Origin: the human T2T-CHM13v2.0 reference genome, Homo sapiens
Assembly (NCBI RefSeq): GCF_009914755.1
Contig: NC_060926.1
Length of the DNA: 64,000 bases
Reading direction: 5' to 3' (one strand)
Shown here: piece after piece, positions 17,698 through 19,272 of the stretch
Numbering within the stretch: the stretch's first letter is position 1
Layout: each line of letters begins with the position of its first letter
Notes under the pieces: model-generated
The model's database searches: none
What the model was told of the DNA's origin: nothing
The model's input: only the letters and a program-made list of their open reading frames with translations
Translations under genes and position numbers: made by a program

Positions 17698-18097
17698 TGA
17701 TATGGTTTGAGTATTTGTTCCCTCCGTATCTCTTGTTGAAATGTGATTCCCATTGTTGGAGATGGGGCCTGGTGGGGGGTGTTGGGGTCACGGGAGGGAG
17801 CAGACCCCTCATGAATATCCTAGTGCCCTCCCCACAGTAATAAGTGACTTGTCCCTCTGTTAGTTCATGTGAGAGCTTGTCTGAGAGAGCCTGGCTTCTC
17901 TTTTGTTTCCTTTCTTGCCATGTGATCCACTTGCTTCCCTTCCCTTCTGCCATGACTATAAGCTTCCTGAGGCTTCATCAGTAGCTGAGGTACATGCTTG
18001 TACAGCCTGCAGAACCATGAGCCAAATAAACATCTTTTCTTTATAAATTACCAAGCCTCAGGTATTCCTTTACAGCAACACAAAACAGATTAACACA
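17698..18097 (+). mobile_element. MSTA/MSTB MaLR solo LTR
   Basis: TG...CA ends, tgatatggtttg start, aataaa signal, 5-bp TSD ggaag/gggag. Confidence 0.9.
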
Positions 18098-18158
18098 GGG
18101 AGTTACTTTGAGACCATCTGGTTTGTCATCTAACTTTCACCCATAGGTTTTAGCATTT

Positions 18159-18218
18159 ATTCTTTTCTTTTTACATTTTTATTTATTTATTTTTTACTTG
18201 CCACTATACTAACGAGGA
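18159..18218 (-). pseudogene. Retroposed 5' fragment (24 nt) of tRNA-Asp(GTC) with A-rich tail
   Basis: Minus strand reads TCCTCGTTAGTATAGTGGCAAGTA, 22/24 identical to the tRNA-Asp-GTC 5' end TCCTCGTTAGTATAGTGGTGAGTA. It is followed by a ~36-nt A-rich tail and flanked by direct repeats aggttttagcattt (18145-18158, 18218-18231). Confidence 0.85.
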
Positions 18219-18245
18219 GGTTTTAGCATTTTAAAAAAATGTATG

Positions 18246-18600
<355 letters not shown>

Positions 18601-18778
18601 TAATTTTCTAATTCCATGATTATTTAATAATTTTTTAAATTGGTATTCTACTGTAAGGAAGAGCTTTCTCTTCTCATTTATTTTTCCATGTATTTATTTA
18701 CTTGATTATGGACTTATGGATTCCTGTTTTATTTTATGGGGTGTAATCTTACATTATCATTCCTTATTTACCTTACTC

Positions 18779-19085
18779 TTTTTTTTTTTTTTTTTTTTTT
18801 TTTTGAGACAGTCTTGCTTTGTCACCCAGACTGGAGTGCTATGACATGATCTCGGCTCACTGCAACCTCTGCTCCCTGGGTTCAAACGATTCTCCTGCCT
18901 CAGCCACCTGAGTAGCTGGGATTACAGGCATGTGCCACCATGCCTTGCTAATTTTTGTATTTTTAGTAGAGACGGGGTTTCACCGTGTTGGCCAGGCTGG
19001 TCTCGAACTCCTGACTTCAAGTTATCTGCCCACCTCAGCCTCCCAAAATGTTGAGATTACAGGCATGAGTCACTGCGCCTGGCCT
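18779..19085 (-). mobile_element. AluS
   Basis: Antisense dimer. Confidence 0.95.
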
Positions 19086-19272
19086 ATCTTATTCTTAATT
19101 TATTATTGTGACAAAATTTTAGCCCATTTGAATAAGTATTAATCATATTATTTGTTGCTGTATTAAAAATAAATCCACAGACAGAATGTTATGATAAAAA
19201 CAGAAGTGGGTTTTCTCTGTCAGAGAATGCTAATTTTAGAACCTCAATATCCATTCTCCCTGCTCCCTCGCC

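What the first reader, a model, noticed from the sequence alone, without database searches (positions are those of the whole stretch)
18145..18232. Retroposed, polyadenylated 5' tRNA-Asp(GTC) fragment (a genomic 'fossil' 5'-tRF) with L1 hallmarks
Seen, on the minus strand: tttt|aaaatgctaaaacc - TCCTCGTTAGTATAGTGGCAAGTA - ~36-nt A-rich tail - aaatgctaaaacct. Established: TCCTCGTTAGTATAGTGGTGAGTA is the 5' end of vertebrate tRNA-Asp(GTC). A 13-14-bp TSD plus a TT/AAAA site is the signature of L1 target-primed reverse transcription. The insert starts exactly at mature tRNA nucleotide 1 and stops just after the D-loop (~nt 24), the size class of 5'-tRFs. Unlike ordinary 5'-truncated retrocopies, it is 3'-truncated yet carries an A tail. 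Inference: a cleaved or trimmed tRNA 5' fragment was oligoadenylated (decay intermediate) in the germline and captured by L1. The two mismatches fall at D-loop positions 19-20, compatible with later mutation or misincorporation at dihydrouridine. It lies antisense in the TTC27 pre-mRNA, so the intron carries an 18-nt perfect complement to 5'-tRF-Asp-GTC. It is probably too short to be annotated by standard tools.
Basis: partly seen in the sequence, partly recalled or inferred. Interest (0 to 1): 0.85.

Follow-up and report, generated by a model that had tools for sequence, protein, structure and literature searches.

The report
Retrocopy of an A-tailed tRNA-Asp fragment
A 24-base copy of the start of the aspartate transfer RNA, with an A-rich tail and duplicated flanks, was pasted into a TTC27 intron by the LINE-1 copying machinery; it is an inert fossil, but one of a recurrent set of such copies.

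Summary
On the minus strand, 18145-18232 reads: 14-nt repeat AAATGCTAAAACCT, tRNA-Asp(GTC) nt 1-24 (nt 1-18 exact, CA for TG at 19-20), a 36-nt tail (75% A), then the same 14-mer. A T7/AAAA site lies upstream. These are the marks of LINE-1 target-primed reverse transcription.

It is not a tRNA gene. The flank and the whole element occur once in the genome.

Under a strict rule, a D-arm end plus an A tail was found at 12 of 29 dispersed Asp loci, 4 of 16 further Asp loci and 8 of 20 Glu loci, but 0 of 20 Gly-TCC loci. End points cluster at nt 22-26.

The tail's origin is unresolved. It could be an oligoadenylated 5' fragment recruited by L1 (favoured), or an early template switch from another RNA's poly(A).

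Both models are already in print for snRNA pseudogenes, including 3'-truncated ones (PMC4476161). So this is a new member of a known kind, of moderate interest. No empty orthologous site could be checked.

The parts
18232..18239 (-). L1 endonuclease-type target context. Read in insert orientation: TTTTTTT (18239-18233), then A (18232), directly before the 5' copy of the duplication (TT/AAAA type).
   Evidence: Read directly. The TT/AAAA consensus is as quoted in PMC5322556 (passage seen).
18218..18231 (-). 5' copy of the target site duplication, AAATGCTAAAACCT. Its last T (18218) coincides with tRNA nt 1.
   Evidence: family D7, 14 of 14 identical; only two exact copies in the window.
18195..18218 (-). 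tRNA-Asp(GTC) nt 1-24. The 18-mer of nt 1-18 is exact (18201-18218). nt 19-24 read CAAGTA where the gene has TGAGTA (18195-18200). This covers the acceptor 5' strand and the D-arm up to the 3' strand of the D-stem.
   Evidence: Reference sequences. Extension alignment ends at nt 24. No tRNA gene called here (ARAGORN; Rfam).
18159..18194 (-). A-rich tail of 36 nt (75% A), lying inside the duplication and therefore part of the inserted material.
18145..18158 (-). 3' copy of the target site duplication, AAATGCTAAAACCT.

Best explanation
Shown: the element is a retrocopy made by LINE-1 target-primed reverse transcription. Its template RNA was nt 1 to about 24 of 5'-processed tRNA-Asp(GTC), followed directly by a 3' A tail.

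Inferred sequence of events:
1. L1 endonuclease nicked a TTTTTTT/AAAA site.
2. The T-rich DNA end primed on the A tail.
3. Reverse transcriptase copied the tail and the 24 tRNA bases, running off at the RNA's 5' end.
4. Repair produced the 13-14-bp target site duplication.

Inferred and favoured: the template was a free 5' fragment ending in the 3' strand of the D-stem, in the tRF-5b size class of 22-24 nt. It had been oligoadenylated by nuclear RNA surveillance and was then recruited by ORF2p through its A tail. This is the model proposed in print for poly(A)-extended and 3'-truncated snRNA pseudogenes.

My own suggestion is that the D-arm hairpin, as the last stable structure met by 3'-to-5' decay, sets the nt 22-26 end points.

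Today the copy is an inert intronic fossil. It has no tRNA fold, and it lacks the T-arm, where the pol III B box lies (established knowledge). No function is shown.
For: Window anatomy:
- 14 of 14 duplication flanking the tRNA nt 1-24 plus 36-nt tail, with a T7/AAAA site.
- No leader or trailer sequence of any tRNA-Asp gene (one search shows the gene flanks).
- The flank and the whole element are each found only at this place in the genome.

Recurrence:
- The 18-mer has 33 exact sites; 30 are tRNA-Asp genes and 3 are not.
- There are 26 one-mismatch sites, where I calculate about 5 by chance. Most carry CpG-decay changes.
- Strict rule (homology ends at or before nt 28, and at least 8 A in 10 nt within 3 nt): 12 of 29 Asp loci with up to 1 mismatch, 4 of 16 selected 2-mismatch Asp loci, 8 of 20 Glu loci, 0 of 20 Gly-TCC loci.
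- Fisher tests: p = 3.6e-4 (Asp, 12 of 26 events after collapsing four chrY copies) and p = 3.3e-3 (Glu), each against Gly.
- End points. Asp loci with up to 1 mismatch: 18, 18, 22, 23, 23, 24, 24, 24, 24, 25, 25, 26. Glu: 22, 22, 23, 23, 23, 24, 25, 26.
- Flanking duplications pass a score cut-off at 13 of 31 short loci, against 3 of 62 control segments. Examples: L028 18 of 20 with a pure A tail of 15-16 nt, L035 16 of 17, L116 18 of 19.
- Where a duplication is clear, copies start at mature nt 1 with 0-2 extra bases.

Why direct polyadenylation is favoured over a template switch:
- None of the 24 copies that pass the strict rule has recognisable L1 or Alu 3' sequence between the fragment and the tail (read by eye).
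- The published tRNA/LINE-1 chimeras number only 21, carry half tRNAs (1-37 nt) and are mostly antisense to the L1 (PMC13174262 and its preprint, passages).
- The same reasoning was used for U1/poly(A) pseudogenes in PMC4476161.
- The tRF-5b size class of 22-24 nt is from PMC7941233.
Against: - No empty orthologous site was seen, because no primate genome is on hand.
- No tool here can show that an A-tailed Asp fragment exists as an RNA.
- Noll et al. 2015 looked for oligo(A) at truncation sites of 5S rRNA and U2 retrocopies. They found no convincing signal and favoured internal priming (PMC5322556).
- One locus, L117, may be Asp nt 1-18 fused to the last ~27 nt of an Alu plus A7. That would be a sense template-switch product with a D-loop junction. 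It is a 2-mismatch hit with ambiguous duplications and may be chance.
- Several junctions carry 1-2 extra G or T bases (L064, L069, L079, L032, L116). This fits either mixed tailing or non-templated addition at a template jump.
- Gly-TCC has a similar D-loop sequence but gave 0 of 20 such copies, which the model does not explain.
- The window copy and L031 share CA at nt 19-20 and a similar start to the tail. This hints at a shared source variant rather than two fully independent events.
Confidence: 0.55

Rival explanations
1. Early template switch. L1 reverse transcriptase started on the poly(A) tail of an L1, Alu or mRNA template. While still in the tail, it jumped to tRNA-Asp or to a 5' fragment of it, and copied that to its 5' end. 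The tail would then belong to another RNA, and the element would be a minimal chimera.
For: - This model is in print for U6/poly(A) and U6atac/poly(A) pseudogenes (PMC4476161).
- tRNA/LINE-1 chimeras exist.
- A snoRNA-Alu chimera is ascribed to template switching (PMC1802619).
- L117 may be an Asp nt 1-18 / Alu 3' end chimera.
- Extra G or T bases at several junctions resemble non-templated additions at jumps.
Against: - Of the 24 strict-rule copies, none shows L1 or Alu 3' sequence before the tail, read by eye. L117, the possible exception, did not pass the rule. Switching would therefore have to occur almost always inside the tail.
- Published tRNA/L1 chimeras are mostly antisense and carry half tRNAs, not D-arm fragments.
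- An end-to-end jump still needs an acceptor whose 3' end lies at nt 22-26, so a 5' fragment is needed in this model too.
Confidence: 0.3
2. RNA ligation before retroposition. A 5' tRNA fragment with a 2',3'-cyclic phosphate end was joined by the tRNA ligase to the 5'-OH end of a poly(A) remnant, and the ligated RNA was then copied by L1. This follows the ligation model for U6/L1 chimeras, which I recall from memory; no paper on it was read here.
For: Only by analogy. The anatomy (fragment joined directly to a tail) does not exclude it. The search for 'RNA ligation' in PMC4476161 gave 0 occurrences.
Against: - It needs 5'-OH ends generated inside poly(A) tracts, for which I know no source.
- It would be expected to give many junctions with non-A sequence, and none was seen among the strict-rule copies.
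Confidence: 0.07
3. A tailless retropseudogene of the Schmitz/Noll type, primed internally on the tRNA, that happened to land in a pre-existing A-rich tract. Alternatively, a chance 18-mer match beside an A-rich microsatellite.
For: - Tailless 5' tRNA copies are common in this genome: 18 of 20 Gly-TCC loci and 9 of 29 Asp loci end in the anticodon loop with no tail.
- A few D-arm copies are followed directly by a duplication that starts with A's (L107, L111).
Against: - In the window, the 36-nt tail lies between the two copies of the duplication and is absent from the 5' side. It was therefore inserted, not pre-existing.
- Chance is excluded by an exact 18-mer (expected 0.02 per window even with 3 mismatches; reversed control 1 against 33 genome-wide) that abuts a 14 of 14 repeat.
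Confidence: 0.04

Closest known systems
Poly(A)-extended snRNA processed pseudogenes, including 3'-truncated ones (Doucet et al. 2015, PMC4476161; section 'Polyadenylated snRNA' read)
   Same: - A small RNA that is not normally polyadenylated, followed directly by a poly(A) or A-rich tract.
- Flanked by target site duplications, with an L1-type cleavage site.
- Five of the published cases are 3'-truncated (2 U1, 1 U5, 2 U6).
- The same two models apply: early template switch from an L1 poly(A), or recruitment of RNA polyadenylated by nuclear surveillance.
   Different: - The source is a tRNA, not an snRNA.
- The copied part is only about 22-26 nt.
- The truncation point recurs, in the 3' strand of the D-stem, across many independent insertions of two tRNA families.
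Tailless retropseudogenes of tRNAs and other small RNAs (Schmitz et al. 2004, not held here; Noll et al. 2015, PMC5322556, passages)
   Same: - 5'-complete, 3'-truncated tRNA copies with target site duplications, made by L1.
- Many examples were seen here: copies ending in the anticodon loop for Gly-TCC, Asp, Glu and Ser.
   Different: - Tailless copies lack an A tail by definition. [quoted passage not shown]
- The window element has a 36-nt tail inside the duplication and ends in the D-stem.
- Noll's screen set a minimum length of 30 nt, and looked for oligo(A) at truncation sites only for 5S and U2.
tRNA/LINE-1 chimeric insertions (Cell Genomics 2026, PMC13174262, and its preprint; passages)
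   Same: A truncated tRNA 5' part is carried into the genome in one L1 event with target site duplications. The authors also suggest that the tRNA was cleaved before reverse transcription.
   Different: Those 21 loci carry L1 sequence and half tRNAs (about 1-37 nt), mostly antisense to the L1, and are ascribed to twin priming. Here there is no L1 sequence, the fragment ends in the D-arm, and it lies in sense orientation to its own tail.
Box H/ACA snoRNA retrogenes (PMC1802619, passages)
   Same: Small-RNA retrocopies with a poly(A) tail, a T2A4 target site and duplications. In some, an Alu was later inserted between the retrogene and the 3' duplication, as at L100, L101 and L102 here.
   Different: The snoRNA copies are full length or shortened at the 5' end, not 3'-truncated.
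'Partial tRNA sequences' outside tRNA space, noted by tRF mappers (Telonis et al. 2015, PMC4694795, passages)
   Same: That paper recognises that short 5' tRNA sequences occur at non-tRNA loci and confound tRF mapping.
   Different: In the passages seen, it gives no account of tails, duplications or how the copies arose.

Membership tests
L1-mediated (target-primed) retrocopy / processed retropseudogene | Target site duplication flanking the insert | tested here: met
   14 of 14 identical, at 18145-18158 and 18218-18231. Control upstream segments gave at most 9 nt with 1 mismatch.
L1-mediated (target-primed) retrocopy / processed retropseudogene | 3' A-rich tail lying inside the duplication | tested here: met
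   36 nt, 75% A, at 18159-18194.
L1-mediated (target-primed) retrocopy / processed retropseudogene | TT/AAAA-type endonuclease site at the 5' edge of the duplication | tested here: met
   TTTTTTT/AAAATG read. The consensus is as quoted in PMC5322556.
L1-mediated (target-primed) retrocopy / processed retropseudogene | Copy of a processed RNA, without the source gene's flanks | tested here: met
   Starts at mature nt 1. No gene leader or trailer (compare the gene flanks).
L1-mediated (target-primed) retrocopy / processed retropseudogene | Empty orthologous site in an outgroup | not testable with these tools
   No primate genomes are held. The flank is single-copy in this genome, so there is no paralogous empty site.
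Tailless retropseudogenes (Schmitz 2004 / Noll 2015) | 5'-complete, 3'-truncated small-RNA copy with a duplication | tested here: met
   nt 1-24 of 72.
Tailless retropseudogenes (Schmitz 2004 / Noll 2015) | No oligo(A) tail, with the duplication directly abutting the truncation point | tested here: not met
   A 36-nt A-rich tail separates the tRNA part from the 3' duplication.
Chimeric L1 insertions (U6/L1 type; tRNA/LINE-1) | L1, Alu or mRNA sequence between the small RNA and the tail, within one pair of duplications | tested here: not met
   Only A-rich sequence lies between nt 24 and the 3' duplication. A whole-element search finds only itself.
Poly(A)-extended (3'-truncated) small-RNA pseudogenes (PMC4476161) | Small non-polyadenylated RNA, full length or 3'-truncated, followed directly by a poly(A) or A-rich tract, with duplications and an L1-type site | tested here: met
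   The family is described for snRNAs only.
Functional tRNA gene or tRNA-derived SINE | Cloverleaf with an anticodon; internal A and B boxes; amplification from a master copy | tested here: not met
   ARAGORN finds 0 genes in the window. No tRNA match in Rfam at E up to 10. The fragment stops at nt 24, before the T-arm where the B box lies (established knowledge). The element plus tail has no other copy.
tRF-5b (5' tRNA fragment of 22-24 nt) | Starts at mature nt 1 and ends at nt 22-24 in the D-arm | tested here: met
   The genomic copy spans nt 1-24. The size class is from PMC7941233.
tRF-5b (5' tRNA fragment of 22-24 nt) | Existed as a free RNA species, here with an A tail | not testable with these tools

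The most novel reading that the evidence does not exclude
A-tailed D-arm fragments of tRNA-Asp and tRNA-Glu are a so far uncatalogued class of L1 retrocopies. There are dozens in the human genome, inserted over a long period.

They would be a genomic fossil record of oligoadenylated tRF-5b-size decay intermediates in the germline. They would show that ORF2p can use templates with as little as ~22-26 nt of non-A sequence. They would also supply, for tRNAs, the 'oligo(A) at the truncation site' signal that was sought but not found for 5S rRNA and U2.
Probability: 0.4. Interest if true: 0.6.

Novelty: new member of a known kind. Interest (0 to 1): 0.42.

Why it matters
For this locus, very little: it is an inert 88-bp fossil in an intron.

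For the class, four points:
- It extends the published idea that L1 can pick up surveillance-tagged, truncated small RNAs from snRNAs to tRNA fragments.
- It gives a sequence-only readout of which tRNA 5' fragments were present with A tails in germline cells. Asp and Glu were; Gly-TCC, Trp, Ser-AGA, Gln-TTG and initiator Met were not among the loci examined.
- It shows that about 24 nt of unique sequence is enough for a retrocopy.
- It flags loci that make short Asp and Glu 5'-tRF reads ambiguous in mapping.

The 18-nt complement to the tRNA-Asp 5' end in the TTC27 pre-mRNA is real. There is no evidence that it does anything.

Tried and rejected
- tRNA gene or pseudogene: ARAGORN found 0 genes in the window. 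Rfam at E up to 10 gave only Alu-related SRP and microRNA hits nearby, and no tRNA.
- Part of a repeat consensus or host L1: the flank 18090-18160 and the element 18140-18240 each match only themselves in the genome. That search skips simple repeats.
- Paralogous empty site: none, for the same reason.
- Tailless copy in a pre-existing A tract: rejected, because the tail lies inside the duplication.
- Dihydrouridine misreading at nt 19-20: 11 of 23 short against 3 of 14 long copies differ from TG, p = 0.17. The TT variants match an extant isodecoder gene (L030). Several 'TA' and 'GA' cases are simply fragments that end at nt 18-19.
- The class in other tRNAs: Gly-TCC gave 0 of 20. Trp had 7 hits, all called tRNA-Trp genes. 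Ser-AGA had 14 hits: 12 exact matches in tRNA clusters (11 checked with ARAGORN; one was called Phe) plus 2 tailless copies. Gln-TTG (12 hits) and initiator Met (13 hits) showed a few tailless or unclear copies and no clear A-tailed one.
- 3'-anchored control: the last 18 nt of tRNA-Asp have 30 exact sites and only 3 one-mismatch sites. The word holds two CpGs, so old copies are under-detected and the asymmetry is not clean.
- Two-mismatch hits of the Asp 18-mer are mostly chance: 137 against 134 for the reversed control. I therefore fetched only 16 of them, chosen for CpG-type changes. Four of these looked like chance or other repeats (L104, L113, L117, L119).
- Schmitz et al. 2004: not held. 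Whether that paper shows D-arm truncations with A-rich 3' sides remains unchecked.
- Literature searches for this class returned no paper describing A-tailed tRNA D-arm retrocopies. Supplementary tables of PMC5322556 and PMC13174262 were not opened and could list such loci.

Full report
**1. What is in the sequence**

Read on the minus strand, 18239-18145 runs as follows:
- TTTTTTT, then A;
- AAATGCTAAAACCT;
- (T)CCTCGTTAGTATAGTGG CAAGTA;
- a 36-nt A-rich tract;
- AAATGCTAAAACCT.

The two 14-mers (18218-18231 and 18145-18158) are identical (family D7). They are the only exact copies in the window. With up to 1 mismatch there are 3 matches, against a mean of 0.13 in 100 shuffles, and none of the 100 shuffles reached 3.

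The 18-mer at 18201-18218 is unique in the window even with 3 mismatches allowed; 0.02 are expected. The tail (18159-18194) is 75% A. Base 18218 serves both as the last T of the repeat and as tRNA nt 1.

**2. Identity of the 24-mer**

[quoted passage not shown] The window matches its nt 1-18 exactly and nt 21-24 as well. It has CA where the tRNA has TG at nt 19-20.

The window's own genome could be searched:
- The 18-mer occurs 33 times, against 1 for the reversed control.
- Thirty of the 33 continue as full tRNA-Asp(GTC) genes. ARAGORN called tRNA-Asp(GTC) in every gene locus it was run on (8 loci).
- The genes include a tandem array on contig 1 with a ~7.4-kb period (22 sites), which also carries Gly-TCC, Glu-CTC and Leu-CAG genes.

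At the window locus there is no tRNA gene and no Rfam tRNA match at E up to 10.

**3. Surroundings**

- An Alu lies at about 18268-18547 on the minus strand (SRP-family hits). Its A-rich end abuts the T7 run.
- On the other side, the + strand up to about 18100 looks to me like the end of a MaLR-type LTR. This is recall only, with no library to test it.
- The 71 bases 18090-18160 and the 101 bases 18140-18240 each match only this place in the genome.
- The hub's table puts the site in a TTC27 intron, antisense to the gene.

**4. It is one of a class**

Three of the 33 exact sites are not genes:
- the window;
- L028: an 18 of 20 duplication, Asp nt 1-26, and a pure A tail of 15-16 nt;
- L027: nt 1-23, a short A-rich stretch, then an Alu.

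With one mismatch there are 26 more sites, where I calculate about 5 by chance. Most carry CpG-decay changes at nt 5-6. At two mismatches the hits are mostly chance: 137 against 134 for the control.

I fetched all 26 one-mismatch sites, the 3 exact sites that had no locus, and 16 two-mismatch sites chosen for CpG-type changes. I classified them by a fixed rule: extension alignment to the gene, with 'D-arm + A' meaning that homology ends at or before nt 28 and at least 8 of 10 bases are A within 3 nt.

| Set | D-arm + A | D-arm, rule not met | Anticodon loop, no tail | Anticodon loop, A-rich start | Full length | Other |
|---|---|---|---|---|---|---|
| Asp, up to 1 mismatch (29 loci; 26 events after collapsing four chrY copies) | 12 | 5 | 9 | 0 | 3 | 0 |
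| Asp, 2-mismatch subset (16 loci) | 4 | 6 | 4 | 0 | 2 | 0 |
| Glu, 20 exact-match loci outside the arrays (picked, fetched) | 8 | 6 | 5 | 1 | 0 | 0 |
| Gly-TCC, 20 loci | 0 | 0 | 18 | 0 | 0 | 2 |

Further points:
- Of the 5 Asp loci that miss the rule, 4 have degenerate A-rich tails. One of them, L035, has a 16 of 17 duplication.
- Of the 6 in the 2-mismatch subset that miss the rule, 4 looked like chance matches or other repeats.
- Asp against Gly gives p = 3.6e-4; Glu against Gly gives p = 3.3e-3.
- End points of the strict class are 18, 18, 22, 23, 23, 24, 24, 24, 24, 25, 25, 26 for Asp loci with up to 1 mismatch, and 22, 22, 23, 23, 23, 24, 25, 26 for Glu. These fall in the 3' strand of the D-stem.
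- An ungapped duplication finder passes 13 of 31 short loci, against 3 of 62 control segments. It misses duplications with indels, such as L101 and L102, which were read by eye.
- At L100, L101 and L102 an Alu sits inside the tail and the duplication follows the Alu. The same arrangement is reported for snoRNA retrogenes (PMC1802619).
- Where duplications are clear, copies begin at mature nt 1 with 0-2 extra bases. By contrast, some tailless Glu copies carry a 7-8-nt leader (L060, L061, L073).
- The CpG at nt 5-6 is intact in some copies and decayed in others, so the insertions span a long period. This is inference.

**5. Specificity**

Dispersed 5' copies are numerous for Asp, Glu and Gly-TCC but few for the other tRNAs tried:

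| tRNA | Hits | What they are |
|---|---|---|
| Glu | 115 with up to 1 mismatch (control 4) | genes plus many dispersed copies |
| Gly-TCC | 61 (control 0) | genes plus many dispersed copies |
| Trp | 7 | all called tRNA-Trp genes |
| Ser-AGA | 14 | 12 exact matches in tRNA clusters (11 checked with ARAGORN; one called Phe) plus 2 tailless copies |
| Gln-TTG | 12 | a few tailless or unclear copies |
| Initiator Met | 13 | a few tailless or unclear copies |

The last 18 nt of tRNA-Asp have 30 exact sites and only 3 one-mismatch sites. That word holds two CpGs, so the comparison is biased.

**6. Mechanism**

Shown: an insert bounded by a duplication, carrying its own A tail, at a TT/AAAA-type site, starting at the mature 5' end of a tRNA. 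That is the anatomy of L1 target-primed reverse transcription. The tail was part of what was reverse transcribed, because it lies inside the duplication.

Inferred: how a 24-nt tRNA piece came to be joined to a tail. Doucet et al. 2015 (PMC4476161, section read) describe the same anatomy for snRNAs, including five 3'-truncated cases, and set out two models:
- an early template switch from the poly(A) of an L1 RNA;
- direct recruitment of RNAs polyadenylated by nuclear surveillance.

They favour the second model for U1, because U1/L1 chimeras are absent. The same reasoning applies here:
- None of the 24 strict-rule copies has L1 or Alu 3' sequence before the tail.
- The published tRNA/LINE-1 chimeras are few (21), carry half tRNAs and are mostly antisense.

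I therefore favour an oligoadenylated 5' fragment (0.55) over a template switch (0.3).

Both models need an RNA 3' end at nt 22-26, unless the switch was internal. The copies are therefore probably fossils of fragments in the tRF-5b size class (22-24 nt; PMC7941233). My suggestion that the D-arm hairpin halts 3'-to-5' decay and is then re-adenylated is inference only.

Evidence against my reading:
- Noll et al. 2015 found no oligo(A) at truncation sites for 5S and U2 and prefer internal priming. Their screen required at least 30 nt.
- L117 may be a sense Asp/Alu chimera.
- Some junctions carry 1-2 extra G or T bases.
- Gly-TCC gave none of this class.

**7. The two mismatches**

Differences from TG at nt 19-20 occur in 11 of 23 short copies and 3 of 14 long copies (p = 0.17).
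- The TT variants match an extant isodecoder gene (L030).
- For Glu, the C at nt 19 matches a Glu-TTC isodecoder whose fragment is listed in PMC10878346.
- No extant gene among the exact-match sites has CA.

The window copy and L031 share CA and a similar start to the tail. That remains unexplained.

**8. Novelty and verdict**

The element is an ordinary product of a known process, acting on an unusual template. It is a new member, from tRNA, of the known kind 'poly(A)-extended, 3'-truncated small-RNA retropseudogenes'.

My literature searches found no description of A-tailed tRNA D-arm retrocopies. However, Schmitz 2004 could not be read and no supplementary tables were opened.

No function is indicated. 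The decisive test for this locus, an empty site in another primate, could not be run.

Noticed in passing
window 18268-18547 (minus strand): An Alu element, seen as two Metazoa_SRP sub-threshold hits plus Alu-derived microRNA-family hits. Its A-rich end abuts the T7 run used as the insertion site. It appears to lack about the first 10 bases.
   Followed up: partly
window ~17900-18100 (+ strand): The sequence looks to me like the 3' end of a MaLR-type LTR. This is recall only; no repeat library was available to test it.
   Followed up: no
window 18779-18800 (minus strand): A run of 22 A's, presumably the tail of another retroelement. The hub lists 18769-19107 as masked.
   Followed up: no
L001-L022 (G000 contig 1, 160.58-160.73 Mb): A tandem array with a period of about 7.4 kb and 22 sites of the Asp 18-mer. 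Each unit checked carries tRNA-Asp-GTC, Gly-TCC and Leu-CAG, and most also carry Glu-CTC. The first unit's Asp gene has C for T just 5' of the anticodon.
   Followed up: partly
L031 (G000 contig 1, 51382215, + strand) compared with window 18159-18200: A second A-tailed Asp copy shares the window's CA at nt 19-20 and a near-identical start to the tail, although its flanks differ. This may reflect a shared lost isodecoder, secondary copying, or coincidence.
   Followed up: partly
L117 (G000 contig 5, 20498662, minus strand): An 18-mer two mismatches away from Asp nt 1-18 is joined directly to the last ~27 nt of an Alu plus A7. There is a possible TGG microhomology at the junction, judged against my recalled Alu sequence. 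It may be a sense template-switch chimera or a chance match beside a severely 5'-truncated Alu. The duplications are ambiguous.
   Followed up: partly
L073 (G000 contig 6, 101009636, minus strand): A Glu copy (nt 1-25) with an 8-nt 5' leader, inserted into what I recognise as the middle A-rich linker of an Alu. The linker sequence is duplicated on both sides.
   Followed up: no
L053-L056 (G000 contig 24, 24.02-25.66 Mb): Four identical copies, in inverted pairs, of one tailless Asp 5' half. It ends in the anticodon loop and is flanked by the duplication AAATTATG. This is one insertion later duplicated with its surroundings.
   Followed up: no
L080-L099 (Gly-TCC sample): Eighteen of 20 dispersed Gly-TCC 5' copies stop at nt 35-39, in or just before the CCAA of the anticodon loop. 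They are followed at once by a duplication that often begins with A's. This is a very uniform tailless class.
   Followed up: partly
L149 and L150 (G000 contigs 8 and 15): The same Gln-like 18-mer with identical flanks occurs on two chromosomes, so this is a duplicated segment rather than two insertions.
   Followed up: no
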